64,000 bases of DNA from IMG/VR virus record IMGVR_UViG_3300005470_000001; one strand, given 5' to 3'. Source of the DNA: an uncultured virus (IMG/VR IMGVR_UViG_3300005470_000001). Lineage: Duplodnaviria > Heunggongvirae > Uroviricota > Caudoviricetes. Of this stretch, positions 27,901 to 64,000 are shown piece after piece. How positions within the stretch are numbered: the first letter of the stretch is position 1; each line of letters opens with the position of its first letter. Position numbers and translations under genes: made by a program. Under the pieces are notes generated by a model that saw nothing but the letters and a program-made list of their open reading frames with translations, searched no databases and was not told where the DNA came from.

Positions 27901-30900
27901 GTGAGAGAACCGCTACAACAAGATATGAATCAGATAATCATATAGATTATTGGAAGAAATTAAAAGAAGGAGATATTATAGAATGGGAAAGTGCTACTGG
28001 AGAAAAAATATTAGTCGAAGTTACTAAACCTTTGCATAAATTAGTAGGTAGTGGAAAAAATGTTGAACAATGGAGCAAATTAGAAGGTTGGTCTACTGAA
28101 TATTTTAATTCTAAAGTTAGACCTAAATTAAATGAAGCTTGGCAAATAGAATATAAACTATTGCAAAATAATAAACCTAAATCAGGTTTTCAAGGTTATA
28201 AAGGAGGATTTGAAAACAAGGGTAAAGGTACTCCACAAGGTGATAGTAAAGATAAAGCAATGAGAGCTGTTGCTGATGCGTTTATTGGTGAATCTATTAC
28301 ACCAATATCATTAAATATAAATTCTTCTTTACATAATTTTATTCCTAAAAGTTCTACTGATACTTCTTTTAAAGAAATAGGTATTAAACATGGTTCTCCT
28401 ACAGAGTATGGAGCTATAGAAGCATATAGAACATCAGGCAATGAAGACGCTAAGATAGTAATGTTAGCTAGAAATTCTGAATTAAGAGGCAAACCATTAA
28501 GTGAAAATACAAAAACAGATATTTATCATAATAACATAAATGGGGCTGAATTTATAGTAGGTGATATGCCAAATGTAGATTCTCAATTTATAGATTATTT
28601 ACAAGAAATAGGAGCTAAATTTACTATTTATCATACAGGAGATAAACCTAGAATTAAAGTTGAAGAATCTAATTTAGAAACTAATAGTGCTAATATACCT
28701 ATTACTCCAATATCAGAGTATAAAAAAACTATTGAAAAAATAGATGATTTTCTTGGTCAAGCTCCTGTTGTCAATGAATATGAAATTACTCCTAAAGAAA
28801 AAATAGATGATTTTCTTGGTCAAGCTCCTGTTGTCAATGAATATGAAATTACTCCTAAAGGAACAATTAATGTTTATTGGGATAAAGCTGAATCATCTAC
28901 TTCTACAAGAATATTATCTAACTTAGCTCCAAGAAAATTTACTTGGGAAGGTAGAGAATACGGAAGTGTAGAACACGCATATCAATCTAATAAATCAGGT
29001 ACTTTTGATAAAGCTACTTATGATGCTTATAATAAAACACCACAAGTATCAGCAAATATTCCTCAAAATAAAGTATCTGGAACAGAATCCTATGGCTTTT
29101 TAGTAGAAGCTAATGATGAGGTTAAAAAACTTCTTGGAAATAATCCACATTCTATTGATATGATAGAAGCAGGATTAAGAACGAGAACTACAAGAAGTAA
29201 ATCTGAAATGGACAAATATGCTATTAAAGTAGGAGATACTATTAAACATTTCGGTAAATCTGCTGATGGGACTATTAAGACTGTATATGCGGTAGTAACA
29301 GCTATACATCCAAAAAATAGCAAAGGTTGGAAAGATACTTGGGAAAAAGAAGGATGGGGGAAAGAATATAGCAATATAATTGATAAATTTAAAGATGGTG
29401 CAGCAGCTATTGAGTTTGAGATTGTAGACAATTTTGCTTATGGTAAAAAAATAAGAGGTAAAGGAACTGTTGCGGAAATGAAAGCTGCTGATAGTTTAGG
29501 ATTAATGAAAAAACTTGTAGTAGAAAGTTTTAGACAAAATCCTAATTCAGAAGCAGCTACTAAACTTTTACAATATGAAAACTTTACTCATAATACTAAT
29601 GAACTAATAGATAAAGCATTTTTAGAAGGGTTACAACTTGCACAAAAAGAATTAAATACTATAGGTGCTACTTTGGAAAGTAAATTAAAAACTTTTTTTA
29701 ATAATTTTGGATTTAAGTTTGAAGAAGGAGATTCATCAACTGACTTACTTCATAAAATAATTTATACAAGCAGGGAAGATTCTTCTGTATTTATAAATAA
29801 TTCAACTAAAGCAATATCTCAATTATTATTAGCTAATACTAATATAGACTTTCGTAAATTAGAAAGTTTAATAGAAGACACTTCTGAATTTAAAAAATTA
29901 CTTAGTAATTCTTCTGATTATTTAAAAACTACACACAAGTTTTTAAAAGACGGTAATAGAATACCTATGGAAGAATGGGTATCTTATATAAAAGACTATA
30001 ATAAAATTAAAAACGAAGTTCTTGAAAAATACATTAAAGAGTCATTATTAGATAATAATAATTCTACTAAATTACATAAAGTAATTAATGATTTTTTAAA
30101 ATGGTTTAAAGATTTATTCACTAATGCTAAAAATTTAAAAGAAGTTACTGACTCTTTAATACAACAAGTATTAATGAATCAAAAAGAGGTTATTATTAAT
30201 TCTAAAGATTTACAAAATAAAGAAAGAGTAACTTTAGCTAAAGCATTAGAAGAAACAACTCATGGTAAAGATATTATTAAGACTTTTGGGGATTTTGGAT
30301 TAATACTTACAGGTAGTATTAGTGCTGCTGAACAAGGTTCTGTATTTAGAAAAACAGGAAAACTTTTACATGATATAGACTGGGTTGTGCCAAAAGGGTT
30401 TAGAAAAGATTTTAATAAAAAATTAAAAGATACTTTTCCAGGAGCAACATTAGTTAGACAATTTGATTCTCCAAGTTATTATACTCAAACTTATATAGTA
30501 CCACCTAAAGGATATACAATTTCTAATCTTACATTTTTTAAACCAGAAATTTATGGAGAAAGAAAATATATAGCTTCTTATGATGTATTAGATAAAAATG
30601 GAAATATTATATCTAATTACAGAAGATATTATGATGTAAAAGAATCTGGTAAAGTAGTAGAAAATAGAGAAGTTTACAACGAGGGCCTTAAAAATGTTGA
30701 TAAAAATTTAGAAGCGGTATCTGTAGATTTTTTTCAAAATAAAGAAAATTTAAAATATGAACCTTATAATATAAGTGTAGGAGAAGTAAATGTATTATTA
30801 TCTAATTGGTTATCTTCTTTTACTGAAAAATTAAAATACGGTAGAGCAAAAGACTTATTAGATTATGCGAACTTTATTCCTAACAATGTAATATCTTCAA

Positions 30901-37066: not shown

Positions 37067-38448
37067 AAAATTGTTCCTCTAATGTTGTATTAAATGTTGC
37101 TCGTTCTACTTTAACAACAACACCTTGTGCTAATGCTTTATCAATTTGAATATAAGCATCTTCATTGTTAGAATTAAGTACTGAAATAGAACAATCTCCT
37201 TGATAGTTCATTTGTTATCGTAAAAGTTTTTTATCTTTTACTTCTATACTTTTATTTTTAAGTTATATGTATAGTTCGGCATATATCATCATTTATTATA
37301 TAAAATAATAAAGAAGGACGCTCGTGGTAATATTATTGGTAGAATATCCTCAATTACTATGCTCTGCACCTTCATTGATACTTATAAATTCATTCTCAAT
37401 GCTTGGCTCAGGATTATCTTCTTCAAGACTTTCCCTGAATTCATCCTTTTTAACGACTCCAACTATTCTCCCATTCTCTTTATTTTTAATAATTGAATTT
37501 TGTTTTGAATGTAATTTTTGATGTTGTGATTTTGTAAAAATAGTTAGATTTTCAATTCGATTATCTAATTTATTTTCATTAATATGATGTACGTGAAATT
37601 CTTTTTTTAAAACTTTATATCCATTTATTATTTCAAAATAACTACTATCATAATTAGAATATTGTTCTATAATATATCTATGTTCCCAAAAACGACCATT
37701 TTTATTAGAAAAAGGATGTTCAGGTAAATATATCAAATTATATCCATAATTAGTAATAATTTTTTTATCAATAAATGATGAATTTAAATGTCCTTTTAAA
37801 CCATATTGATGATTTTTTTCACCTAAACAATATGTTTTTCTAAAAATACGATTGCATTCTTTAGAACAAGTAATTCCATTTTTTAATCTTTTTAATCTAT
37901 AAGGTTTTAAATACATTTTCTTTTTACATACAACACATTCACAATTTGATTCTTTATTAAATTTTTGATATGTTTCATAACAATTATAACAACAAAACTT
38001 ACTTGAATTTAATAAAGATTTTTCTTCAAATTCTTTTCCACAATTTTTACATATAAACATAATACATTTGATTTAGAATTAAATAAGAATCAAATGTACC
38101 AAATTATTTAGAAATAAACAAATTTTATTTAGAGTCAATAGTACCCAATTGTACAATTATACCAGTTTTAAGTGTAACTCCACTTTTAGGTCTTATTTGT
38201 ATTTCATAACCATTTGGTATATTAAAATGTTGTTTAGTAGAAAACAATGCTCTTTCAGCTGAACATAATTTTACAGTGTTATCTATTAAATTATATCTCA
38301 ATTGAATTTCTTCATAAGATAATTCACGACTACCATTATATATTTTTAATATATCAAATGGATATAAATCAAAACCACTTGTACCTGTATCAAAAGCATA
38401 TTTTGGTGAAGAAACCTCAGTATTTAATCTTTCTATTGTTATAGTCAT
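37014..38448 (-). CDS. dut: dUTPase, two exons (38448-38131 and 37208-37014), 170 aa spliced
   Basis: Motifs SGFDL, QIRPKSG and RGHGGFGST; splicing restores motif 3 as GTIDS|NYQG in frame. Confidence 0.92.
37350..38060 (-). CDS. Intron-encoded HNH homing endonuclease with Zn-binding repeats
   Basis: CxxC repeats; EHR..HVHHINENKLDNRIENL..H..LH. Confidence 0.9.
   Translation of the reverse strand: MFICKNCGKEFEEKSLLNSSKFCCYNCYETYQKFNKESNCECVVCKKKMYLKPYRLKRLKNGITCSKECNRIFRKTYCLGEKNHQYGLKGHLNSSFIDKKIITNYGYNLIYLPEHPFSNKNGRFWEHRYIIEQYSNYDSSYFEIINGYKVLKKEFHVHHINENKLDNRIENLTIFTKSQHQKLHSKQNSIIKNKENGRIVGVVKKDEFRESLEEDNPEPSIENEFISINEGAEHSN
38091..38122 (-). promoter_or_regulatory. Bacteroidota-type sigma70 promoter for the intron HNH gene
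   Basis: TTTG-N20-TACATTTG matches the TTTG-N19-21-TAnnTTTG consensus. Confidence 0.6.
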
Positions 38449-50873: not shown

Positions 50874-52536
50874 TTATTTACCATAATTTCTTACTGCATC
50901 TACTACTAATCCCATATCATTTTTGATATAAAGATCATCAAATAAACCCTGAGATTTAGATGGATATTGACCATCATTCTCAGTTACAAAAAATTTCTCT
51001 ACTTTTTTAAGAGATTCATTATATTGTGATTTACCAAATAACATTAGATCAAATTTTCCTTCAGGCGTCAAATATTCTTGACAAATATTATATAATGCTT
51101 TTAAGTTGAGTAATTATTTCAACACATTATAACTTAATATTTCTATTAAGATTCGACTATATCTTTATTTTTATATGACCAAACAAAACCATAAGCAGTT
51201 TTTAATCTACCAGAACAACAAGACCATATATTAGATTTTAAATAACCTAATTCCTCTTCTATTTGTCCTAATGTAAACCATTCTTTTATTAGTTCATTTT
51301 CTCTACTAAATTGTAATATAAGATACTTAGATTTTTTAATTCTAGTTTCCATACTCAATTTTTTACCAATATTACATTGTTTTATTTTCTCTTTTGTACT
51401 ATCACTAAGTATTTTTCCTTTGTGAGAATTAGAAATTTTTAACTTTGTAATTTCAGTTCTAGATTTACCTTTTAAAGAATTAGATATTTTTTCTTTGTGT
51501 TCTAATGACATTTTATAGCCTAATGTCCCAGATTCACCACCAATAGAATGATTACATAAATTTGGATATATAGAAATAAAATATTGTTCTCTTTCTATCC
51601 AATTTTCACATTCTTCAATTAATTCAATTAATGGTTTTTTATTTTTTTCTAAAAGAGAATATATCCAACAAGAAACATGAGATGTTCTTGATTTTTTTGC
51701 TTTTGTAATATGTCCTGAAAGTCTCTTTTTTAAAGATTCTTTTGTTTTACCAATATATTTTATATCATTGGTTTCAGGATCTATTAATTTATATATTTTG
51801 GTCATTATTTTTACTTTAATAGTTAATATTATAATAAAAATAGTAAAAAATACTCACTGTTTCCAAATTAAGTAATTAGTTTAATTTGTACTCTCCCACA
51901 ACAGGAGATAGTCTGTGAACCTTATTCCTTTAAGGAATCTTGGCTGCTGATTGCCCAATTCTTACCTCTTTTACTATACTATAATCATTACTGTTATAGG
52001 GAGTGTGTAAGACTCTAAGGGTGTTCCAGTCAATTAAATGAGTAATGGCCCAAGATGACCATCTTACCTGTAGTCTTCATACGATAACTAATATCACCAC
52101 TATTATTTACTTTATAATCTTCTGAATGAGCTAAACAAATAATAATTTTTGTTTTAGCTAATTCATCTAATGCAGTAAATATCAAACCCATATCATAACC
52201 AATTTGTTTTGGCGTATCCCAACCATTTTTCATAGCATTAGCCATGTAAAAATCTTGCATAATATAGTTAAAATCATCTATAACTATAATATTAAATGGT
52301 GAGTTCAATAGGTTTTTTAATACTTGTACAATAACTTTTGCATTACTTGTGATGATTCTATTACCATCTTTTAAATTATCAGGTGTTGTAACTTTATAAT
52401 TAGGTGTCCATTTGGCAACACAACTAATTAAAAAAGTTTCTTTTGGATCAATACCTTTAATACCTAATTTTTCATTTTTAAGTAAAGAAGCAGTTTTACC
52501 AAAACCACTCTCACCTAATATAAGAATTTTTATCAT
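50874..52536 (-). CDS. AAA/Sak4-like ATPase, two exons (52536-52058 and 51081-50874), 228 aa spliced
   Basis: Walker A GESGFGKT, Walker B IIVIDD; splicing gives MKTTGKMV|QEYLTPEGKFD in frame. Confidence 0.88.
51082..52057 (-). mobile_element. Group I intron in the AAA ATPase gene (976 nt)
   Basis: P1 AUGGU/GCCAU with U-G at the splice site; AAUCAGCAG, GUUCACAGACUA and AAGAUAUAGUCG core elements; terminal G. Confidence 0.92.
51146..51805 (-). CDS. Intron-encoded GIY-YIG homing endonuclease with NUMOD3/NUMOD1 repeats
   Basis: KIY..YIGKT..R..H, E, N motifs; HKEKISNSLKGK repeats; C-terminal KTAYGFVW. Confidence 0.9.
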   Translation of the reverse strand: MTKIYKLIDPETNDIKYIGKTKESLKKRLSGHITKAKKSRTSHVSCWIYSLLEKNKKPLIELIEECENWIEREQYFISIYPNLCNHSIGGESGTLGYKMSLEHKEKISNSLKGKSRTEITKLKISNSHKGKILSDSTKEKIKQCNIGKKLSMETRIKKSKYLILQFSRENELIKEWFTLGQIEEELGYLKSNIWSCCSGRLKTAYGFVWSYKNKDIVES

Positions 52537-55340: not shown

Positions 55341-57204
55341 TTAACAGTTTATTAGCTTTATCTATGTAAAAATCATAATTTATATTTTTAAATAATTCAC
55401 TTTTAATTTCATCATTTAAATAATTACAAGGAGTACATAAATAATCCTTCTGTATATTGAATTGACGTTTATTCATTATTTTTAACAAAGTATATCCAGT
55501 ATTAGTAACTAAATATCTTGTTAATCTTGGTAATTGAATAATATCATCACCATTAATACCAATTAAACTTGAATCTTTATTAAGTTTTGTTCTTAAAAAG
55601 AAATCAAATATATCATTGTGATTTTTAATAAAATCTTCAATTGGAATATTATAAAGATAATATGCTTCTACAGCTTTTGGAACTATTAATCTAGAATGAT
55701 CTTTGTATAATTCTCTTTCTATTGTATAAGGACCTTTTTGTTTAACTTTACCATCTTCATATATTGCTATATATGAATTACAATTAGAAATTAATATTTT
55801 ACTATACGTATTATATTCTAATTGAAGTTTTGTTAATTTTTCCCATGATTTACAAATATCATAAAACTTATTAATTTCATTTGATGGTATAATAATTTCT
55901 CCACCATCAGTATTTATCATTAATAATTTACTATTTGATATATCCATTAATTGTTCACATAACATACTAAGAAGTAATTGACCATTCAAAGTAATGGACA
56001 TTGTAAATTGAGGATCATACAATGAAGAATGTATAGAATTAGATTTACCGTATGCACCATTTAATGCTAATTTGTATAATTCATTTCTACTATCACTTTT
56101 AGGATATTTTAATCTTTCATTATATATATCTTCATAAATTTTACAAAAAGTATTACCTAAATGTAAAGGAAATAAGTTGTTTCTAATACTAATATTTGGA
56201 TACAAAGATTTAACATCAAAAGTCATTATTTTGTAATTTTCATTACTATAATAAATACCTTTTTCAGCACCATGTATCCCACCAGTCCCAAATGTAAATT
56301 CAAAACCTTTATGTACTACATTTAATTTCTTAAGATTTGTCTTTTTAAAAATCTTAATATTAATATTAGGTTTTAATTCTTCTATTTCTTCTAATGGTAT
56401 TTCAGTAAAAACACTTTTTGTTTCTTTTATAATTTTTTTGTTAAACCAAGTAAGTATATTTTTAAATGGTTCATGTTCAAATGCTATATAAGGAAAAATA
56501 ATATCTTTTAATATGATTTCTTTCCTATATGTTTGACCTAAATCTTCTTTATTTAAATGTTCTTTAATTCTTTTGATTAAAATATATTCACCTAATTTAG
56601 GATTATTATAGTTTAAAAGATTTGTTTTATACAAATAACTAGATTTAAATCTATCATCAATTAATGTTTTAGTTCTTAAAAACAATTCATATGTAGCATT
56701 GATATCATTAACACAATATTCTTTAACTACATCTATTTCATTTAATTCTAATACTTTATCATGTGCATAAGGTAATTCTTGAACATTATTCATTCTCATA
56801 GAAAATTCAAGACCTTTTAACGAAATCATTTTAGCTTTATTATCATAATGATTTATTTTTAATAAATCTAACTGTATGATTTTATTATTTGCATGAACAA
56901 ATGATGAATTAATTAAAGTATTAGCTTTGTTTTTAAGATTATTAGTAAGAATATCTGTATACATTAATGGATATTTTTTCATTAAATCTTCAAAATGATT
57001 TAACAAAGGCCAGTCAAATTTAAGAGTATTGAAACCAATCATTATCTTTTTTTTATCGTTTAAAAAAGCTAATAATTCTTTTCTTTCATCTTTAACTGGA
57101 CTTATTTCAAAAGCAAATATTTTACTTTCTTTTTCAGTAATATCTTTACATAATAGGTAGAAAAAGTTAGTAAATATTTCAATATCATATATTATTTTTT
57201 TCAT
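55315..57204 (-). CDS. Family B DNA polymerase
   Basis: Exonuclease YDIE, FD, YCVND; polymerase DVKSLYP, KLALNGAYG and NTDG. Confidence 0.92.
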   Translation of the reverse strand: MKKIIYDIEIFTNFFYLLCKDITEKESKIFAFEISPVKDERKELLAFLNDKKKIMIGFNTLKFDWPLLNHFEDLMKKYPLMYTDILTNNLKNKANTLINSSFVHANNKIIQLDLLKINHYDNKAKMISLKGLEFSMRMNNVQELPYAHDKVLELNEIDVVKEYCVNDINATYELFLRTKTLIDDRFKSSYLYKTNLLNYNNPKLGEYILIKRIKEHLNKEDLGQTYRKEIILKDIIFPYIAFEHEPFKNILTWFNKKIIKETKSVFTEIPLEEIEELKPNINIKIFKKTNLKKLNVVHKGFEFTFGTGGIHGAEKGIYYSNENYKIMTFDVKSLYPNISIRNNLFPLHLGNTFCKIYEDIYNERLKYPKSDSRNELYKLALNGAYGKSNSIHSSLYDPQFTMSITLNGQLLLSMLCEQLMDISNSKLLMINTDGGEIIIPSNEINKFYDICKSWEKLTKLQLEYNTYSKILISNCNSYIAIYEDGKVKQKGPYTIERELYKDHSRLIVPKAVEAYYLYNIPIEDFIKNHNDIFDFFLRTKLNKDSSLIGINGDDIIQLPRLTRYLVTNTGYTLLKIMNKRQFNIQKDYLCTPCNYLNDEIKSELFKNINYDFYIDKANKLLIGEDNEEN

Positions 57205-57230
57205 TTGGTTTAACTTCCAAATTGTTAAAA

Positions 57231-57575
57231 TTAAGATTCAGTATTTATTATATCAATTTTAACTTTAGTAATACCATCAATACCAATTAATTTAGCTGCT
57301 TTTTTAGATAAATCTATAATTCTACCTTTTACAAATGGACCTCTGTCATTAATTCTAACTTTAATTGACAAATTATTTGAAAGATTTGTAACAGTTACTA
57401 TTGTATTAAATGGTAAAGATTTATGTGCAGCAGTTAAAGCATGCATGTTAAATTTTTCACCATTTGCTGTTTTTCTTCCATGAAATTGTTTTCCATAATA
57501 AGATGCGATACCAATTTCTGCACTTGCACTCAAAGGTATTAATAGAATTAAAAAAGATATAATTGTTTTTTTCAT
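57231..57575 (-). CDS. rlpA: RlpA-like lytic transglycosylase (DPBB) with signal peptide
   Basis: [34 protein letters not shown]. Confidence 0.92.
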
Positions 57576-57684
57576 AAATAGTTATTTAGTTATAAATACT
57601 CAATAATTGATTTAATTATTGTTTTATTTGTAAATGTAGGGAAGGAGGGAATCGAACCCTCACGGATTTCTCCAGTGGATTTTA

Positions 57685-58474
57685 CTTACCACTATAGCAG
57701 TTAGCTACCAGACTTTCTTGTCTATTTACAATCTATTCGTCTGTTTGTGGTCTGGACTATATCTTTACCATATCATTTCTGATTTAGGTATGCAGTACAT
57801 AGTCTCTGAACCTTCCTCATGCAAAAATATAAACGACATTTTTGTTTAGAGGCTCGGATGCTGATTGACCAATATCAGTTATTTTTATAACATTTGAGTT
57901 CGTCATTTCTAACCACTCTTTAGTTAACTGATCTCTAAGGCTATCCCAGCAATTCTCTGCATTACTACTATACAGTTTCCTATATAGCGACCATTGTTGT
58001 TGAAGAAAACGATGTAAAGCATTGTGTTTGTTTACTGACATTATCATAAAGTTAGATAATATATTGTGTTCAGGATTTTCATCAATATGATGAATAAAGA
58101 TATCTTTTGATAACAAGAATCCTAAATCAATAATTGCTTGTCTACCTAAAGTATTACCTTTAGTACTCCTACTTACTTTATTATAATTTTCAGTATTCTT
58201 TTTTCTACATTTTAAATGAGTTAATTGGTTTGGTCTATTCATAATCATTGATTCACCACATAATGAACAAACTCCTATACCATAACGTTTTTTAGTATTC
58301 TTGTTATAGTATTTTTTAACTCGTTCTCTATTATAGATTTTAGCACACTCTTTACATCTTTTTCTTTCAACTACTTCTTCTTTGCCACAATCAATACACA
58401 TTTTCATATTTAGATAAGTTTAAGTTAAAAACTAAATATACAAAAATGGTAGACAATAACAAAAGAAAAGTTTT
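57685..58474 (-). mobile_element. Group I intron in the tRNA-Leu anticodon loop (790 nt)
   Basis: AAUUGCUGGGA, AAUCAGCA, GUUCAGAGACUA and AAGAUAUAGUCC core elements; preceded by U, ends in G. Confidence 0.9.
57817..58407 (-). CDS. Intron-encoded HNH homing endonuclease
   Basis: CxxC pairs; IHHIDENPEHN..N..HNALH; 3' part runs through the ribozyme core. Confidence 0.85.
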   Translation of the reverse strand: MKMCIDCGKEEVVERKRCKECAKIYNRERVKKYYNKNTKKRYGIGVCSLCGESMIMNRPNQLTHLKCRKKNTENYNKVSRSTKGNTLGRQAIIDLGFLLSKDIFIHHIDENPEHNILSNFMIMSVNKHNALHRFLQQQWSLYRKLYSSNAENCWDSLRDQLTKEWLEMTNSNVIKITDIGQSASEPLNKNVVYIFA

Positions 58475-58519
58475 AGTCCACAGCGTCTACCAGTTCCGCC
58501 ACAACCCCATTAATATTTG

Positions 58520-58647
58520 TTCTTCAGGGTGGATTCGAACCACCAAGACTCAGTTTATCTCAACTGCCACATTGTCTAATTGTCTCATCTAAGTCTTTTA
58601 TGTGGTAAATGAATAAGACAATGCTCTACCATTTGAGCTACTGAAGA
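58520..58647 (-). ncRNA. tRNA-like RNA with 78-nt insert replacing the anticodon/variable region
   Basis: Perfect acceptor UCUUCAG/CUGAAGA, D arm GCUC/GAGC, T arm GGUGG-UUCGAAU-CCACC. Confidence 0.75.
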
Positions 58648-58686
58648 ACCAAATTATATATAAGACCACCATATATATATAATAAG

Positions 58687-58760
58687 TAGGCCCTGTAGGA
58701 TTTGAACCTACGACCCAGCGATTATGAGTCGCTTGCTCTAACCAACTGAGCTAAGGGCCT
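58687..58760 (-). tRNA. tRNA with CAU anticodon, probably Ile2 (lysidine type)
   Basis: Cloverleaf; AGCGA-CUCAUAA-UCGCU; body resembles bacterial tRNA-Ile2. Confidence 0.88.
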
Positions 58761-59060
58761 TTATCTAAAGGTATCTCTACTCAAGAGAGATTTATTACAA
58801 ACACCGCGTGTTAAACTTTAGTTACAAAATTTTGTTTCTAATCTATATTTAAAGTGAGAGTAACAATGACCATAATTAACATGTTTTTTTATTTTAAATA
58901 CATTGTAAATATCTTTAAATAATACAGTAATGTTTTTCATTGTAATATACCTTGTTTATAGAATTAAAATTTTCAAAGAACAATTAAGTGGTATCCCTGG
59001 TCCCTGAGCCAGTGATGGTAATATTTCAACCCCAGTTGTTTTAACACCAGATACCACAAG

Positions 59061-59134
59061 AGCTTCCTGAGGGACTCGAACCCCCAACATCCTCATTACA
59101 AGTGAGGTGCTCTACCAATTAAAGCTAAGGAAGC
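59061..59134 (-). tRNA. tRNA-Thr(UGU)
   Basis: Cloverleaf; CCUCA-CUUGUAA-UGAGG. Confidence 0.92.
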
Positions 59135-59171
59135 AAAAATGTAGTATATAAAATCATTTACATACTACATT
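59135..59171 (-). terminator. Long AT-rich hairpin plus T run directly upstream of tRNA-Thr (terminator or processing site)
   Basis: AATGTAGTATGTAAA / TTTATATACTACATT inverted repeat. Confidence 0.45.
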
Positions 59172-59241
59172 AATAATAAATAATTTAAACTTATGGCGAA
59201 TATTATTGAAGTATTATCAATTCCAGCTCGAAGTTTTAAAA

Positions 59242-59508
59242 TTATTTCACAACAAAATCTAAATCTTCAACTTTAAAACATTTAAAACGATTACTGTTTT
59301 TTTCAACATGGGTTTGTTCTTCGTCTTCAAAATGTGTATTTTTAAAATCAAAAGGAGTAAAATTTAATGTATGATCTACAAAATACAAATCTAGAAAATA
59401 ATTAGTATCATTTTCAACAAAATCTGTATTATCTCTTTTTATAGCAATTACATATTTATCTTTCAATCTAACTAATGCTGTTGCATTATAAGTGGTTATA
59501 TCTGACAT
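59242..59508 (-). CDS. Hypothetical protein
   Basis: ORF in operon. Confidence 0.55.
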   Translation of the reverse strand: MSDITTYNATALVRLKDKYVIAIKRDNTDFVENDTNYFLDLYFVDHTLNFTPFDFKNTHFEDEEQTHVEKNSNRFKCFKVEDLDFVVK

Positions 59509-59515
59509 TTTATTT

Positions 59516-60025
59516 TTATTTTTTTAAATTATTAATAACAATATCTAATAAAACAGGTGTATAATTGATACATTCTACACTAACATTAAAATGATGTTTT
59601 CCCATATTTAATTCAGGATGAACTTCTGCTGTATTATGCATATGACCATGTATATTATAAAAAGAAGTATTATTTAAATTTTGTATAGGTTCATGAGATA
59701 AAATAACATCATTTATTATAATAGGATATTTATAATACATGTAAAATAAATCAATATAATATTGATCTTTTTCATTATCATGATTACCTTTTATTAATAT
59801 AATTCTACCATTTAATGCATTTATAATTGAAGTAACATGCTCTTTATTAATAGACATAGCTATATCACCTAAATGATATACAATATCATTTTTTTTGACA
59901 ACAGAATTCCAATTATTAATTAATTCTTTTGTCATAATATCTACATTTTCAAAAGGTCTATTACAATATTTAATTATATTATTATGTCCAAAATGTGTAT
60001 CACTTATAATATATGTTTTATTCAT
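59516..60025 (-). CDS. Calcineurin-like metallophosphoesterase
   Basis: SDTHFGH, HLGD, GNHD and IHGHMH motifs. Confidence 0.92.
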   Translation of the reverse strand: MNKTYIISDTHFGHNNIIKYCNRPFENVDIMTKELINNWNSVVKKNDIVYHLGDIAMSINKEHVTSIINALNGRIILIKGNHDNEKDQYYIDLFYMYYKYPIIINDVILSHEPIQNLNNTSFYNIHGHMHNTAEVHPELNMGKHHFNVSVECINYTPVLLDIVINNLKK

Positions 60026-60052
60026 GTATAAAATTGTATTTTAAATTTATAG

Positions 60053-60124
60053 CTGGGGAAGTAGGATTCGAACCTACGAGTGTCAGCTCCAAAGGCCGAT
60101 GCCTTACCACTTGGCTATTCCCCA
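60053..60124 (-). tRNA. tRNA-Gln(UUG)
   Basis: Cloverleaf; UCGGC-CUUUGGA-GCUGA. Confidence 0.9.
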
Positions 60125-60137
60125 AGTTGTATATACT

Positions 60138-60314
60138 TTAATCCCCATCTCCAGCTATTGAATCTAAATGACAAGTACAGTATTTTATAGTACTCATTTT
60201 ATACTCAATATACTTCAAAATATCTTTTCTGAGTTCATCAATAGTTTCATTGTGACTTTGTTCACAAGGACAATTAAACCATTTTGCTTTATTAAAAATT
60301 TCTTCTAAATTCAT
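60138..60314 (-). CDS. Small hypothetical protein (58 aa, not in ORF track)
   Basis: ATG..TAA ORF MNLEEIFNKAKWFNCPC.. filling the gap, preceded by AAGGAG. Confidence 0.5.
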   Translation of the reverse strand: MNLEEIFNKAKWFNCPCEQSHNETIDELRKDILKYIEYKMSTIKYCTCHLDSIAGDGD

Positions 60315-60936
60315 TTTTTCTCCTTGTTTTTATAGGAACATATTTTCTTTGAAATACACCAAAACATACATTAAAAGAACCATCATCACATTTTTCAACA
60401 TATGCTTTAGGTGAACGTTCATTTTTTATAGCATATTGAAATGCTTGATATTCAAGATCAACAATTCTTTTTTCCAAAGCCATGATAAGTAAATCTTTAC
60501 CATTACTTGCATCCTTACAGCATTCAAGTTGTAGTTCTATATCTGCAATCCTATCATACAACTTTTTATTCGCCTCATAATCTTCAACTTCTTCACGCCA
60601 TGTTGATGGTTTATCGGATACCACTTTGTCTATAGGCTCTTTGAGTGGTTTCAAGTTTCGCACAGGACGAACCCTGAAGTTGAAGTCCTTGTTGTAGCTG
60701 CTCTGGTTGCCATTGGAGAAGTACTGGTTCCACGCGTTGTCAGCATCGTACTCCGACGAACTCCAGTAGTAGTAGGCTCCAAAACCACCAATATTTTCTT
60801 GCTCAAGGTACATCTGATTTAGCTCATCTTTTGTCGGCAACCGCCAACCATCACCAAGTGCTTCGACAACTTTAATAGCTTTGTCCCACGAGTAAGAGCC
60901 ATCGAGGTCTTTGTGGTAGATCTCAATATTTAACAT
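60292..60936 (-). CDS. DUF1566/Lcl-like (C-type lectin fold) domain plus coiled coil
   Basis: GWRLPTKDEL..YWSSSE..AW..F..G..VRPVR. Confidence 0.8.
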   Translation of the reverse strand: MLNIEIYHKDLDGSYSWDKAIKVVEALGDGWRLPTKDELNQMYLEQENIGGFGAYYYWSSSEYDADNAWNQYFSNGNQSSYNKDFNFRVRPVRNLKPLKEPIDKVVSDKPSTWREEVEDYEANKKLYDRIADIELQLECCKDASNGKDLLIMALEKRIVDLEYQAFQYAIKNERSPKAYVEKCDDGSFNVCFGVFQRKYVPIKTRRKNEFRRNF

Positions 60937-61085
60937 TCTTCCTCCTCTTTATAATATGCAGGTATGTGATTTTCATAAACAATAGCCGAACCACTTTCCA
61001 AATATCCACTGATTTCGTAATGTTTTGTTCCGCTTGAGAACATTATCTTCAGTGTGTTCCAGATCTTTTTCATTTTTTTCTTTCT

Positions 61086-61325
61086 TTATTTTTTGATTTC
61101 AAGATCACTAATTGTGTCACCATACACTGTGATGGTGTGAGTATGTATATGTCCATATTGATCTTTACAACGCACCTTGATGTGACGTGAATGTACGATA
61201 CTGTTAAATCCTTCTAGATCACGTACTTCATCAACGGTGATTTCGGTGACATTATGAATGTCCATTGATGATACTGTCATTATTGTCTTTATTAATTTAG
61301 TTATCTCCGTTTTCATATGCGCCAA
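61086..61325 (-). CDS. Hypothetical protein
   Basis: ORF in operon. Confidence 0.5.
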   Translation of the reverse strand: MAHMKTEITKLIKTIMTVSSMDIHNVTEITVDEVRDLEGFNSIVHSRHIKVRCKDQYGHIHTHTITVYGDTISDLEIKK

Positions 61326-61491
61326 CTAACCAAGGTAGTCCTGCAAATATAAGCATTACAAGACCACCAAGCAATGCACCTTCTAATGTTGAACTTTTGT
61401 CAAAACCAAGTGCTAATCCACCAAGTACACATAAGATAAGTACTCCAGTTCCTGGATGATCTTTAGCTCCTCTAATGATTCGCTTAATCAT
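61297..61491 (-). CDS. Small two-TM membrane protein
   Basis: Two hydrophobic segments; AGGAGG upstream. Confidence 0.6.
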   Translation of the reverse strand: MIKRIIRGAKDHPGTGVLILCVLGGLALGFDKSSTLEGALLGGLVMLIFAGLPWLVGAYENGDN

Positions 61492-61510
61492 ATATTGTCC
61501 TCCTAATATA

Positions 61511-61741
61511 TTAAAAACAAAGTGCTACCGCAGCTGCATAATAATGTGTATCGAAACCGTTCCGGCACAGGTACTCATCCATCAGTGTTGCGAGCGCCTT
61601 TTCAAGTTCTGCAATGCGCAGGTCTTTGCTCGCTATCCTGTCGTGCAGTTCATCAATGACAACCCTCCGCAGTGTGTGCGGACAATTGACCTCAAGTGCT
61701 GCTGCGTATGCCTGCTCAAGTTCTGCAATACGCTTCTTCAC
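61511..61741 (-). CDS. Coiled-coil protein (RIAELE repeats); start uncertain
   Basis: Reading frame is open upstream to a TAG at 61793-61795. Confidence 0.5.
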   Translation of the reverse strand: MKKRIAELEQAYAAALEVNCPHTLRRVVIDELHDRIASKDLRIAELEKALATLMDEYLCRNGFDTHYYAAAVALCF

Positions 61742-61792
61742 TGCTTCTTCAATGCGCGAGATGCTGTCGTTGTGTAGTCGGGTGAACTCTGT

Positions 61793-62152
61793 CTATTTCT
61801 CCCCCTTGTTTTCAACAGCCCTTTCAAATCTTTTGATCCAAGCTTCACGGTCTTCTTCCCATTCATTCAGTGCTTCCAGCTTTCCCTCAAGCACCTCAAT
61901 CTGTAGCTTCTGCATATCAACTCTTCCTTCTAACTTTATAACCTGCCCATCCTTTTCAAGCGCACCCTCTATGTGCCTTAATACTCCAAGATGATATCCA
62001 TCCTCAAAGGCATCAACGACCTCAGCCTCAAGCTCTGCAATGCGATTCTGAACCTCAAACGCGTCAATGTATGGCAACGCTGGAGCCCCTTGCTCCGAGT
62101 CATACACATCCGCTGTGCCATTATTATACTGTACTACCCATATCGTTTTCAT
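61793..62152 (-). CDS. Coiled-coil hypothetical protein
   Basis: AAGGAGGAG ribosome-binding site; RIAELE motif. Confidence 0.65.
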   Translation of the reverse strand: MKTIWVVQYNNGTADVYDSEQGAPALPYIDAFEVQNRIAELEAEVVDAFEDGYHLGVLRHIEGALEKDGQVIKLEGRVDMQKLQIEVLEGKLEALNEWEEDREAWIKRFERAVENKGEK

Positions 62153-62814
62153 TTCTCCTCCTTGTTGAATTTAAAATCTCGCACAGGACGAGCCTTGTAG
62201 CTGTTGATCTTGTAGTTGAAGTACTGGTGGCCAGTGTAGAAATACTGGTTCCACGCGAAGTCAGCATTGTATTCCGACGAACTCCAGTAGACATAGGCTC
62301 CAAAACCGCCAATAGCTACGCGATTTTTGTACATCTGATTCAGTTCATCCTTGGTCGGCAACCTCCAGCCTTCGCCAAGCGCTTCGACCACCTTAACTGC
62401 CTCATCCCATGTGTAAATTCCACCAAGGTCTTGTGGATAGACCTCGAACTCAAGTTCTTGATACAGTGTTGTCGTCATTTCTCCTCCTTGTTCCTCCTTG
62501 TTTGGTTTTAAATCTCGCACAGGACGAACCCTGTTATAGATGCTTTTGTAGGCGTTGCCATGGCCGCCAGTGTAGAAACACTTGAGCCACGCAATCTCCT
62601 CGTCGTACTCCGACGAACTCCAGTAGTAGTAGGCTCCAAAACCGCCAATTTCTTCTTGCTCCAAATACATCAGCTCCAGCTCTTTTTTTGTTGGTAGTCG
62701 CCATCCGTCGCCAAGTGCTTCGACAACCTTAACTGCTTCATCCCATATGTAAAATCCTTCGAGATCTTGTGGGTAAACCTCGAACCCAAGTTCTTGATGT
62801 AGTGCTGTCGTCAT
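62149..62814 (-). CDS. Tandem two-domain DUF1566/Lcl-like protein (likely start 62814; internal start 62478)
   Basis: Two copies of WRLPT.EL..YWSSSE..AW..RPVR, each preceded by AAGGAGGAGAAATGACGAC. Confidence 0.8.
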   Translation of the reverse strand: MTTALHQELGFEVYPQDLEGFYIWDEAVKVVEALGDGWRLPTKKELELMYLEQEEIGGFGAYYYWSSSEYDEEIAWLKCFYTGGHGNAYKSIYNRVRPVRDLKPNKEEQGGEMTTTLYQELEFEVYPQDLGGIYTWDEAVKVVEALGEGWRLPTKDELNQMYKNRVAIGGFGAYVYWSSSEYNADFAWNQYFYTGHQYFNYKINSYKARPVRDFKFNKEEK

Positions 62815-62830
62815 TTCTCCTCCTTGTTTA

Positions 62831-63061
62831 TTACGAAAGGTTAAATGCTTCAATCTCTGCACTTGTTAGTTTTTCTAACGCAGACTCACGAAGTTTTATA
62901 CGTTTAATCTCTTTTTTTATATAAGGAGATATATTTGTTTTCGTGTTATATTGCTTTCCATAAGCATCAACACCCCAACCACATTCATCGCAGTGCCAAT
63001 CATTGTGTCCTTCCATTATGTAAGACCCACAATTCTTACAAACAATTACATCGTGTCCCAT
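62831..63061 (-). CDS. Small Zn-ribbon protein
   Basis: CKNC..CDEC. Confidence 0.6.
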   Translation of the reverse strand: MGHDVIVCKNCGSYIMEGHNDWHCDECGWGVDAYGKQYNTKTNISPYIKKEIKRIKLRESALEKLTSAEIEAFNLS

Positions 63062-63062
63062 C

Positions 63063-63326
63063 TTAAACCTCCTCCCAATTTAGTTTAGCCCCACACTGAG
63101 GGCAAAAAGTCCATTCTTCGGATAGTCCCCTATATTCGCATTCCGAACAGTCCCAGTCTTTACGCCCTGATCCGTTATACACCGGTCTTATATATATTTT
63201 TTGCGGGTATTCTTCTGCGCGTTTCCTCCAGTAGCACACATCGCATAGGTCAAGGTCAACGCCCTTCTGTCTGCCATGTAGGCGTGGGTTGATGGCGTAT
63301 GATCCGCAATTTTTGCAGTTTATCAT
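63063..63326 (-). CDS. Small double Zn-ribbon protein
   Basis: Four CxxC pairs, FCPQCGAKL. Confidence 0.65.
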   Translation of the reverse strand: MINCKNCGSYAINPRLHGRQKGVDLDLCDVCYWRKRAEEYPQKIYIRPVYNGSGRKDWDCSECEYRGLSEEWTFCPQCGAKLNWEEV

Positions 63327-63631
63327 TTTTCCTTTTTGTTTAGCATTGCGTTTATAATTTGGGTAACTGGTGACTCAGTTGTCGCATATACTGCTATGTC
63401 TTCAAGCGCGCCTTCAAGCTCGGCTATGCGCTGAACTGCCTGTGTATACTTAGCACTCAGCTCAAAGTATCGGGTATGTGCAGTCTTGCTTGCTTCAGTA
63501 TGCAGCTCAGCAGTCCTCATACTCCTGTCCAGTTGCTCCTCAAGCTCAGTGATGCGCTCTCTCAAGATGTCTTCAACTCCTCTACTCTGTTGCATCTCTT
63601 CGATTTGTGACTCATTCATGTTTATCTTCAT
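63323..63631 (-). CDS. Coiled-coil hypothetical protein
   Basis: RITELE and RIAELE motifs. Confidence 0.6.
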   Translation of the reverse strand: MKINMNESQIEEMQQSRGVEDILRERITELEEQLDRSMRTAELHTEASKTAHTRYFELSAKYTQAVQRIAELEGALEDIAVYATTESPVTQIINAMLNKKEK

Positions 63632-63756
63632 CTATATAACAATTATGAAATTCTCTATCCCAAATTTCTTCTTTCCAATACTTAACACTATTAAAAACAA
63701 TATCAACAAGCATTTTTATTTTGCTAATAAATTCTGTCATTTTTATTTTCATAATT

Positions 63757-63999
63757 TTATCTAATAATTAATGATTTTTTTGGTGTAATTTTAATACAAT
63801 CAGGGATTGTTTCAAGAACACCATCTTTAAAATCTTTTTTGATTATAGAAATATGTGGTTTAAATTCTTTAGTTGCATAACCACTTGATAAAAGTGAATT
63901 TTTATTTTCTTCAGTAATATCTTCTTTTAATTCCCAAGATTCAGTATTACGAATATTATAATTTCCTAAATCAGTTTTTAATTTACTTTCTCCACTTAA
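63757..63999 (-). CDS. 3' end of a truncated ORF, possibly Gp157-like
   Basis: Open frame ..KLKTDLGNYNIRNTES..IIKKDFKDG..KKSLIIR* running off the window edge. Confidence 0.45.
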   Translation of the reverse strand, partial: LSGESKLKTDLGNYNIRNTESWELKEDITEENKNSLLSSGYATKEFKPHISIIKKDFKDGVLETIPDCIKITPKKSLIIR

Positions 64000-64000
64000 T

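What the first reader, a model, noticed from the sequence alone, without database searches (positions are those of the whole stretch)
58520..58647. tRNA scaffold carrying a 78-nt, potentially pseudoknotted insert instead of an anticodon arm
Seen: perfect acceptor, D and T arms, with 78 nt (58545-58622) where about 23 are expected. The insert has several complementary pairs: AUUGUCUUAUU/GAUGAGACAAU (11 bp), AAGACUUAG/CUGAGUCUU (9 bp), CCACAU/AUGUGG and CAGUU/AACUG. These cross each other, implying pseudoknots or alternative folds, and AGACAAU occurs twice. It is too short for a group I intron and has a D stem, unlike tmRNA. Inference: a novel tRNA-mimic ncRNA, such as a decoy for anticodon nucleases or a tRNA-stabilised aptamer or sRNA, or a tRNA with an atypical mini-intron.
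Basis: partly seen in the sequence, partly recalled or inferred. Interest (0 to 1): 0.75.

Follow-up and report, generated by a model that had tools for sequence, protein, structure and literature searches.

The report
Orphan anticodon-less tRNA look-alike, crAss-like phage
A crAss-like phage carries, inside its tRNA gene cluster, a gene with a flawless tRNA "top half" but 55 extra bases and no usable anticodon arm, so it most likely makes a tRNA-shaped RNA that cannot read codons; it has no known relatives and its role is unproven.

Summary
On the minus strand (58647 to 58520) lies a 128-nt gene with perfect acceptor, D and T arms and 78 nt where about 23 are expected. Rfam's tRNA model scores it at 45.3 bits (cut-off 29), but default ARAGORN and gathering-mode Rfam miss it. 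Their excess over shuffles is modest (P about 0.03-0.05), they exclude each other, and no pseudoknot is supported.

The window is a crAss-like phage. The gene sits between tRNA-Met and a tRNA-Leu(UAA) that holds a group I intron.

I found no 7-nt anticodon loop, no single excision that gives a canonical anticodon arm, no bulge-helix-bulge (BHB) motif and no group I core. It matches neither YrlA nor the two recurrent phage tRNA-insert modules I met along the way.

Only identical copies turned up in viral, metagenome and genome scans, so covariation could not be tested.

Best reading (about 0.4): a non-decoding, tRNA-derived stable RNA. Its closest architectural analogue is phage T5 RNA1. Rivals are a recent relic (0.3) and an unknown splicing route (0.2).

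Earlier notes of this scan describe similar phage tRNA mimics on other DNA.

The parts
58520..58647 (-). whole tRNA-like gene, 128 nt (5' end at 58647, discriminator A at 58520)
   Evidence: Rfam tRNA 45.3 bits; ARAGORN -i; sequence
58641..58647 (-). acceptor stem, 5' strand (UCUUCAG)
   Evidence: 7 of 7 pairs with 58521-58527
58623..58638 (-). D arm (4-bp stem, 8-nt loop holding G18 G19)
58545..58622 (-). 78-nt middle region in place of nt 26, the anticodon arm and the variable loop (about 23 nt expected)
58579..58622 (-). arm X, fold a: 11-bp helix AUUGUCUUAUU/GAUGAGACAAU closing a 22-nt loop. It contains a U.G wobble right after GUCUU, which resembles a group I P1 helix
   Evidence: MFE fold -34.5 kcal/mol; helix list
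58571..58577 (-). second AGACAAU copy, the alternative partner of AUUGUCU (fold b: 7 bp plus an inner 8-bp helix, -34.2 to -34.3 kcal/mol). Infernal and ARAGORN use it as the 3' strand of the anticodon stem
58551..58566 (-). hairpin Y: CAGUU-GAGAUA-AACUG (5 bp, 6-nt loop), followed by a 6-nt linker AGUCUU (58545-58550) to the T stem
58528..58544 (-). T arm (GGUGG-UUCGAAU-CCACC)
58521..58527 (-). acceptor stem, 3' strand (CUGAAGA)
58686..58760 (-). upstream neighbour tRNA-Met(CAU), 38 nt away
57636..58508 (-). downstream neighbour, 11 nt away: tRNA-Leu(UAA) split by a 790-nt group I intron that carries a 196-aa ORF (57817-58407)
   Evidence: ARAGORN -i; Rfam Intron_gpI 29.7 bits, E 2.5e-5, at 57741-58012

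Best explanation
This is a tRNA-derived gene that can no longer decode. It is probably co-transcribed with the phage's tRNA cluster. Its intact acceptor, T and D arms should let the host's tRNA-processing enzymes (RNase P, 3' trimming, CCA addition) cut it out as a stable RNA of about 130 nt (inferred). It would fold as a tRNA-like L-shaped top half. The anticodon arm is replaced by an irregular 15-18 bp arm (two nearly equal folds), followed by a small 5-bp hairpin. It has no 7-nt anticodon loop, so it cannot read codons. If it has a role, it acts as a tRNA mimic that occupies or diverts proteins recognising the tRNA elbow and acceptor end (speculative). It most likely arose from a Lys- or Asn-type tRNA gene through about 55 nt of expansion in and after the anticodon loop.
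For: Shown: the tRNA body is complete with its tertiary-pair nucleotides and scores 45.3 bits on Rfam tRNA. The gene lies inside a same-strand tRNA cluster, 38 nt and 11 nt from its neighbours, and no terminator-like site lies between 57200 and 60400. No hairpin with a 7-nt loop and U33 exists in the 78 nt. No single excision gives a canonical anticodon arm. By the same test, 41 of 66 other insert-bearing phage tRNA-like genes do give one under strict rules and 53 of 66 under relaxed rules; ours is one of the 13 that give none. ARAGORN run on 2047 in-silico deletions made 67 different anticodon calls, so no identity stands out. The gene is identical in three strain variants that differ by 2.4-2.6% overall. 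Five substitutions fall in the adjacent tRNA-Met, the spacers and the tRNA-Leu exon. Precedent: phage T5 RNA1 is annotated as a 'tRNA-like stable RNA with unknown functions' and lies in a tRNA cluster beside homing endonucleases. Over 131 nt it is likewise a tRNA scaffold (Rfam tRNA 24 bits) with an expanded anticodon arm. T4 rnaC is a looser precedent. Origin: the only normal-length phage tRNAs with the same acceptor stem and D-arm start that ARAGORN called cleanly are tRNA-Asn(GUU), 2 of 4 hits. AAA and AAU are the two commonest codons, 8.3% and 8.0% of 15,810 codons in 22 ORFs.
Against: No homologue other than identical copies was found, so no covariation supports any fold of the middle region. 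The middle region folds no better than shuffles, although the clearly conserved family-2 modules do not either. Conservation is weak evidence: 6.6% and 10.4% of all aligned 128-nt windows are also identical between strains. Two folds within 0.3 kcal/mol of each other and an 8-nt-spaced direct repeat look more like an accident than a design. No partner protein, RNA ligase, Ro60 or nuclease gene was seen in the window. About a third of the roughly 100-kb genome was not available. Transcription, processing and stability are all inferred.
Confidence: 0.4

Rival explanations
1. Recent relic. A Lys- or Asn-type tRNA gene was damaged by imprecise loss of a group I intron from its anticodon loop, and/or by local duplication. 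It has not yet been purged, and the tRNA body is intact only because the event is young.
For: The 5' strand AUUGUCUU pairs with GAGACAAU, with a U.G wobble exactly after GUCUU. That resembles a group I P1 helix, and the second AGACAAU is then the true 3' strand of the anticodon stem. The gene 11 nt downstream holds a group I intron after U33, and the three strains carry three different intron sequences there, so introns turn over at this locus. The element is an orphan, confined to one phage lineage. No single fold dominates.
Against: There are no substitutions in 128 nt in strains that differ by about 2.5%, while the neighbouring functional tRNAs carry 3. The insert has no significant similarity to the neighbouring intron (179 of 200 shuffles score as well). 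Besides the 35 nt in the loop, about 22 further extra nt lie after the anticodon stem, and a single intron scar does not explain them. Phage genomes tend to lose dead DNA quickly (general knowledge).
Confidence: 0.3
2. A real tRNA awaiting an unknown kind of splicing. ARAGORN's version is tRNA-Lys(UUU) after removal of 35 nt, keeping a 26-nt variable region. Other possible versions are Asn(GUU) after removal of 50 nt, or an Ile(GAU)-like form after removal of 55 nt following nt 28.
For: ARAGORN -i calls tRNA-Lys(UUU) with anticodon loop CUUUUAG. AAA and AAU are the phage's commonest codons, and its other tRNAs read A-ending codons. In 41 of 66 other phage tRNA-like genes with 40-64-nt inserts, removing one insert restores a perfect anticodon arm, which implies that some excision or tolerance route exists in phage infections. 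Lak megaphages carry 'enigmatic' tRNA introns (PMC6784885: passages and Table S6 seen).
Against: Each version has defects. The Lys form lacks nt 26, has G38 and a 26-nt variable region on a class I body. The Asn form has G37 and a 10-nt variable loop. The Ile form has A33 and a mismatched stem. Three competing imperfect solutions in AU-rich sequence look like chance. No BHB motif is present, no group I core, the ARAGORN intron does not end in G, and no ligase or endonuclease candidate lies in the window.
Confidence: 0.2
3. A Y-RNA-like (YrlA-type) or family-1 module grafted onto a tRNA. The middle region would form a rod: an 8-bp helix (UUGUCUUA/UGAGAUAA), an 8-by-4-nt internal loop, and a 6-bp helix (CCACAU/AUGUGG). 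This imitates the Ro60-binding stem.
For: The helix and loop sizes resemble the YrlA consensus stem (7 bp, an 8-by-5 loop, 6 bp) and family-1 members such as L156. Many phage tRNA genes do carry such modules.
Against: The rod fold is 5 kcal/mol less stable than the MFE. Rfam YrlA gives only 16 bits, E 7.1, on a stretch spanning two genes. My family-1 model gives 4.0 bits, E 3.6, here, against 24.6-46.4 bits for 8 of 10 held-out members. The GNCGAAN0-1G motif (PMC4201824) is absent. No TROVE/Ro60 gene lies in the window.
Confidence: 0.05

Closest known systems
Phage T5 RNA1 (AY543070, misc_RNA 30501-30644, annotated 'tRNA-like stable RNA with unknown functions')
   Same: It lies inside a phage tRNA cluster next to homing endonuclease genes. 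It is a tRNA scaffold (Rfam tRNA 24 bits over 131 nt) with tens of extra nt in the anticodon arm and a hairpin before the T arm. Its size (131-144 nt) is close to our 128 nt. It shares the 11-nt string GUUGAGAUAAA just upstream of the T arm.
   Different: T5 RNA1 has a tRNA-Leu-type (class II) body, whereas ours has a class I D arm. The overall alignment is poor. The T5-like fold of ours is 6.6 kcal/mol above the MFE. The shared 11-mer may be chance. The hosts and phage lineages are unrelated.
'Enigmatic' introns in Lak megaphage tRNA genes (Devoto et al. 2019, PMC6784885, Table S6)
   Same: These are phage tRNA genes with inserts of unknown type in the anticodon region. tRNAscan detects them only with eukaryote settings, and the phages are AT-rich and infect Bacteroidetes.
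   Different: Lak inserts are 23-141 nt and sit at or near position 37/38. Removing them leaves an assignable tRNA, and some hold a second tRNA-like fold. Ours yields no clean tRNA on removal of any one segment.
YrlA / bacterial and phage Y RNAs (Rfam RF02553; Chen et al. 2014, PMC4201824)
   Same: They are non-decoding RNAs with authentic T and D arms, and their anticodon-stem position continues into a long irregular stem. They are substrates of tRNA enzymes.
   Different: YrlA is circularly permuted: its ends lie in the long stem and its acceptor stem is capped. It carries a GNCGAAN0-1G motif and lies beside Ro60. None of these holds here.
Bacterial and phage tRNA genes with group I introns in the anticodon loop
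   Same: The insert follows the U-rich 5' half of the anticodon loop. A P1-like helix with a U.G wobble sits at the would-be 5' splice site. The next gene has a real group I intron.
   Different: The insert is 35-55 nt with no catalytic core and no terminal G, so it cannot self-splice.
Phage T4 rnaC (species 1 RNA, 139 nt)
   Same: A stable RNA of unknown function at the end of a phage tRNA cluster, beside a homing endonuclease. It has a T arm and an acceptor-like stem.
   Different: It has no D arm, gets no tRNA-model hit (tRNA-Sec only, 17.5 bits, E 0.7), and has a different architecture.

Membership tests
tRNA (Rfam RF00005) | Acceptor, D and T arms with the conserved tertiary nucleotides; score above the gathering cut-off | tested here: met
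   45.3 bits against a cut-off of 29, model positions 1-71; nucleotides read directly
tRNA (Rfam RF00005) | 5-bp anticodon stem closing a 7-nt loop with U33 and a purine at 37 | tested here: not met
   No such hairpin in the 78 nt. None after any single excision, under strict or relaxed rules.
Group I intron in a tRNA | Catalytic core P3-P9 (RF00028) | tested here: not met
   No Intron_gpI hit in 58520-58647 at E <= 10. The insert is at most 55 nt.
Group I intron in a tRNA | U at -1 forming a U.G pair in P1; G as the last intron base | tested here: inconclusive
   The U.G wobble after GUCUU is present. ARAGORN's intron ends in A, not G.
Archaeal/eukaryal BHB tRNA intron | Bulge-helix-bulge motif (3-nt bulge, 4-bp helix, 3-nt bulge, flanked by helices) | tested here: not met
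   0 motifs in the 128 nt, even with flanking helices of only 2 bp
YrlA (RF02553) | Match to the covariance model | tested here: not met
   16 bits, E 7.1, model 27-81 only, spanning the tRNA-Met 3' half and our 5' half. Phage YrlA-like loci score 32-53 bits.
YrlA (RF02553) | GNCGAAN0-1G Rsr-binding motif (PMC4201824, passage seen) | tested here: not met
   No CGAA anywhere in the 78 nt (direct reading)
YrlA (RF02553) | Encoded beside a Ro60/TROVE gene | tested here: not met
   No TROVE hit among 48 window ORFs scanned against Pfam. The rest of the genome was not available.
Phage tRNA-insert module 'family 1' (ends GUUACUU; my model R1) | Score on R1 | tested here: not met
   4.0 bits, E 3.6, at 58591-58626. 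No hit at the locus in the L002 copy. 8 of 10 held-out members score 24.6-46.4 bits.
Phage tRNA-insert module 'family 2' (covarying hairpin followed by ACAGCAA) | 7-bp hairpin followed by ACAGCAA, inserted after nt 28/29 | tested here: not met
   Motif absent. In alignment A2 our row does not form the hairpin.
tmRNA | tRNA-like ends without a D stem, plus a tag reading frame and pseudoknots | tested here: not met
   ARAGORN found no tmRNA. A full D stem is present, and 78 nt is too short.
T5 RNA1-type stable tRNA-like RNA | tRNA scaffold with an expanded anticodon arm, encoded in a phage tRNA cluster | tested here: met
   Same architecture
T5 RNA1-type stable tRNA-like RNA | Sequence homology | tested here: inconclusive
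   Only one shared 11-mer; the MAFFT alignment is poor

The most novel reading that the evidence does not exclude
The gene is one instance of a general and largely undescribed habit of phages: building extra RNA arms into tRNA frames at the junction of the D and anticodon stems. Here the arm would replace the anticodon arm entirely, giving a stable, CCA-tailed decoy that soaks up a host tRNA-directed factor, such as an anticodon nuclease or another tRNA-binding defence or repair protein, during infection. A bolder variant is that the 35-nt P1-like hairpin is a minimal intron, spliced in trans by the group I ribozyme of the tRNA-Leu gene 11 nt downstream.
Probability: 0.2. Interest if true: 0.65.

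Novelty: new variant of a known kind. Interest (0 to 1): 0.38.

Why it matters
Standard annotation misses this gene; default ARAGORN and gathering-mode Rfam both did. Phage tRNA clusters may therefore hold more tRNA-shaped non-decoders than catalogues show. If it works as a mimic, it adds to a 40-year-old puzzle, the stable RNAs of T4 and T5 tRNA clusters, and to current work on phage tRNAs as counter-defence. On its own, however, it is a single orphan sequence with no covariation or expression support. The more valuable by-product is the evidence that dozens of unrelated phages carry two conserved structured modules inserted after nt 28/29 of otherwise normal tRNA genes.

Tried and rejected
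Homologue hunts:
- blastn against 50,697 phage records found nothing.
- The 8 viral-contig scans, one metagenome scan (8 loci, of which 2 identical copies and 6 unrelated) and one genome-contig scan (0) yielded only 100%-identical copies of this element.
- Relatives of the phage found through its DNA polymerase comprised 3 near-identical loci and 8 at 34-43% identity. The element occurs only in the near-identical contigs.
- A tRNA-model search of 5 of the distant records showed no comparable long tRNA hit.

Expression:
- The look-up of sequencing runs listed 2 aquatic metatranscriptome runs holding 8-9% of the words of 57000-60400.
Nothing was laid and no inference is drawn.

Other ideas rejected:
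- Similarity of the insert to the neighbouring group I intron: none.
- Other copies of the insert in the window (a mobile-element idea): none.
- Similarity to any of the other fetched loci: none.
- BHB intron.
- A 'spare anticodon arm' as in earlier notes of this scan: no 7-nt-loop hairpin.
- Family 2, family 1 via model R1 and YrlA.
- MFE z-score as a test of structure: uninformative, because conserved modules also score near 0.
- ARAGORN on all single deletions: too permissive to assign an identity.
- Promoter and terminator scan: uninformative in 25% GC DNA.
- DGR idea for the 300-nt repeats at 60.6-62.8 kb: mismatches are not A-specific.

Literature searches found no description of this element or of the family-2 module. 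Only search listings were seen apart from PMC6784885, PMC4201824, PMC7886860 and 10.1101/2021.08.26.457843, of which passages were read.

Full report
WHAT IS THERE

The feature lies on the minus strand. Read from 58647 down to 58520, it has these parts:
- a 7-bp acceptor stem (UCUUCAG/CUGAAGA) with discriminator A;
- U8 and A9;
- a 4-bp D stem with loop AAAUGGUA;
- 78 nt (58622-58545);
- a T arm, GGUGG-UUCGAAU-CCACC.

The usual tertiary-contact nucleotides are present: U8, A14, G18G19, A21, U54U55C56 and A58. Position 15 is A and the base before the T stem is U, which is the allowed A15-U48 combination.

Rfam's tRNA model aligns it end to end at 45.3 bits, E 6.6e-8, against a cut-off of 29. 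The alignment places 33 extra nt in the anticodon loop and about 22 in the variable region. Gathering mode on the whole window did not list the hit, and default ARAGORN missed it. With introns allowed, ARAGORN calls tRNA-Lys(UUU) with a 35-nt intron and a long variable region. That model has no nucleotide 26.

CONTEXT

The window has 25% GC. It encodes crAss-type tail ring and muzzle proteins (PF25702, PF24228, PF25731), a 5161-aa ORF and a replication module. It is therefore a crAss-like phage.

The element belongs to a same-strand cluster, in this order:
- tRNA-Gln(UUG);
- a metallophosphoesterase gene;
- tRNA-Thr(UGU);
- tRNA-Met(CAU);
- this element;
- 11 nt further on, a tRNA-Leu(UAA) split after U33 by a 790-nt insert.

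That 790-nt insert matches the group I intron model (29.7 bits, E 2.5e-5) and carries a 196-aa ORF.

The window's own assembly is not held. A 49-kb virus record carries an identical copy.

THE HELICES

Compared with 1000 dinucleotide shuffles of the 78 nt:
- an 11-bp helix arises in 3.2% of shuffles;
- two helices of at least 9 bp arise in 3.5%;
- the summed helix length is reached in 4.9%.

So there is a modest excess of self-complementarity. The main cause is that one strand, AUUGUC(UU), has four possible partners: GAGACAAU, AGACAAU, GGCAGU and UGAGAUAA. These are alternatives, and nothing favours a pseudoknot.

The minimum-energy fold is -34.5 kcal/mol. It uses the 11-bp helix closing a 22-nt loop, plus the CAGUU/AACUG hairpin. 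A second fold reaches -34.2 to -34.3 kcal/mol. It pairs AUUGUCU with the second AGACAAU and adds an inner 8-bp helix.

The 78 nt alone fold no better than shuffles (z -0.71). This test has little power, because the clearly conserved family-2 modules described below have a median z of -0.38 (n = 36).

CAN IT BE A tRNA?

The unspliced RNA has no hairpin with a 7-nt loop and U33.

I tried removing every possible single segment and asked for a 5-bp stem, a 7-nt loop with U33 and a purine at 37. There was no solution, even with one mismatch allowed.

Solutions that need two segments removed, or that tolerate a mismatched stem, all carry defects:
- Lys(UUU) lacks nt 26, has G38 and keeps a 26-nt variable region.
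- Asn(GUU) has G37 and a 10-nt variable loop.
- An Ile(GAU)-like form, with 55 nt removed after nt 28, has A33 and a mismatched stem.

ARAGORN accepted 718 of 2047 single-deletion variants and made 67 different anticodon calls. The strong tRNA body drives detection, and the anticodon assignment carries no information.

Other checks were also negative:
- There is no bulge-helix-bulge motif (0 found).
- There is no group I core.
- No splicing endonuclease, RtcB, RNA ligase or Ro60 gene appears among the window's ORFs.

COMPARISON WITH OTHER INSERT-BEARING PHAGE tRNAs

Of 66 distinct sequences with at least 6 acceptor pairs:
- 41 give a perfect anticodon arm after removal of one insert;
- 53 do so under relaxed rules;
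- 13, ours among them, give none.

In 29 of the 41, the insert sits after nt 28 or 29, in the 5' strand of the anticodon stem.

Two modules recur.

Family 2 (36 distinct sequences) is a 7-bp hairpin followed by ACAGCAA. The hairpin shows many compensatory changes.

Family 1 ends in GUUACUU. A dedicated scan gave 77 loci and 53 distinct modules after I dropped 9 likely chance matches. Of 20 such loci, 19 match Rfam YrlA at E <= 0.1, scoring 32-53 bits, all below the gathering score of 69. This links family 1 to phage Y-RNA-like RNAs.

Our element fits neither module. It lacks the family-2 motif. My family-1 model gives it 4.0 bits, E 3.6, against 24.6-46.4 bits for 8 of 10 held-out members. The other two held-out members scored 15.5 and 10.4 bits.

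A rod fold with YrlA-like dimensions can be drawn for the element, but it is 5 kcal/mol less stable than the MFE. The YrlA motif and the Ro60 neighbour are both absent.

HOMOLOGUES AND CONSERVATION

Every search returned only identical copies, in two IMG/VR contigs and two metagenome contigs. Covariation cannot be tested.

Three strain variants differ from the window by 2.4-2.6% where alignable. Across them:
- the 128 nt are invariant;
- tRNA-Met has 2 substitutions, the spacers 2 and the tRNA-Leu exon 1.

However, 6.6% and 10.4% of all aligned 128-nt windows are also identical between strains. This is only a hint of constraint.

The three strains carry three different sequences inside the tRNA-Leu intron, so intron turnover is active next door.

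ORIGIN

Normal-length phage tRNAs with the same acceptor stem and D-arm start were sought, giving four loci. Two are tRNA-Asn(GUU), one received an odd ARAGORN call and one received none.

AAA and AAU are the phage's commonest codons. An ancestral Lys or Asn tRNA is therefore plausible.

The helix AUUGUCUU/GAGACAAU has a U.G wobble exactly after GUCUU. It looks like a group I P1 helix, and the second AGACAAU would then be the real 3' strand of the anticodon stem. The loop insert could thus be the stump of a lost group I intron.

The insert shows no similarity to the neighbouring intron. The stump idea also does not explain the roughly 22 extra nt after the anticodon stem.

VERDICT

The element is a real tRNA-derived gene whose anticodon arm has been replaced or disrupted. 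It fits no known intron type.

Three readings remain:
- It most likely yields a tRNA-shaped RNA that cannot decode (0.4). The closest precedent in architecture is T5 RNA1, a 'tRNA-like stable RNA with unknown functions' that lies in a tRNA cluster with homing endonucleases. I found T5 RNA1 to be a 131-nt tRNA scaffold with an expanded anticodon arm.
- A young relic (0.3) cannot be excluded.
- An unknown splicing route (0.2) cannot be excluded.

Transcription, processing and any function are inferred, not shown.

Earlier AI notes of this scan describe similar anticodon-less phage tRNA mimics on other DNA. I used them only as leads.

Noticed in passing
window 57636-58508 (-): tRNA-Leu(UAA) is interrupted after U33 by a 790-nt group I intron (Rfam 29.7 bits, below the cut-off of 50). 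The intron carries a 196-aa Cys-rich ORF with an HNH-like HH...N...H stretch (my reading; no Pfam or PHROG hit). The acceptor stem has two U.U mismatches. Three near-identical phage strains carry three different sequences right after the 5' splice site.
   Followed up: partly
L009-L112 (viral contigs), e.g. L015:390-503(-): 'Family 2': at least 36 distinct phage tRNA genes of many anticodons (Val, Ser, Thr, Gly, Arg, Lys, Ile, Asn) carry a 41-54-nt insert after nt 28/29. The insert is a 7-bp hairpin with many compensatory changes, followed by invariant ACAGCAA. Removing it restores a perfect anticodon arm in most cases. Rfam 15 gave no match among the 8 members scanned, and my paper searches found no description.
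   Followed up: partly
L156-L232 (viral contigs): 'Family 1': 53 distinct modules ending in GUUACUU follow a tRNA D arm. Some are inserts in otherwise complete tRNAs. Others are permuted, often tandem, YrlA-like units: 19 of 20 loci hit Rfam YrlA at 32-53 bits, below the cut-off of 69. Model R1 recognises them.
   Followed up: partly
L244:1002-1145(-) (phage T5 RNA1) and window 58554-58564: T5 RNA1 and the window element share the 11-nt string GUUGAGAUAAA at a similar place just upstream of the T arm. This may be chance.
   Followed up: partly
window 60000-64000: GC rises from about 25% to 38-41%. Three 300-nt direct repeats (60628-60927, 62149-62448, 62485-62784; 73-74% identity) encode Lcl_C-domain proteins. 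Mismatches are not A-specific, so this is not a DGR template/variable pair.
   Followed up: partly
window 15912-31397 (+): A single 5161-aa ORF, with further giant ORFs of 1687 and 1460 aa; it was not scanned against any family library. The coding strand and the GC skew both switch near 36.2 kb.
   Followed up: no
window 37350-38060 (-) and 51146-51805 (-): Free-standing HNH and GIY-YIG/NUMOD3 homing endonuclease genes lie in the replication module, in addition to the intron ORF.
   Followed up: no
window 59516-60025 (-): A calcineurin-like metallophosphoesterase gene (PF00149, phrog_547) is embedded between tRNA-Gln and tRNA-Thr. The same fold heals RNA ends in bacterial Pnkp (recalled, not tested).
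   Followed up: no
window 58686-58760 (-): The tRNA-Met(CAU) begins with an A1-U72 pair, which is unusual for a bacterial-type tRNA-Met (recalled). Its identity (initiator, elongator or Ile2) was not examined.
   Followed up: no
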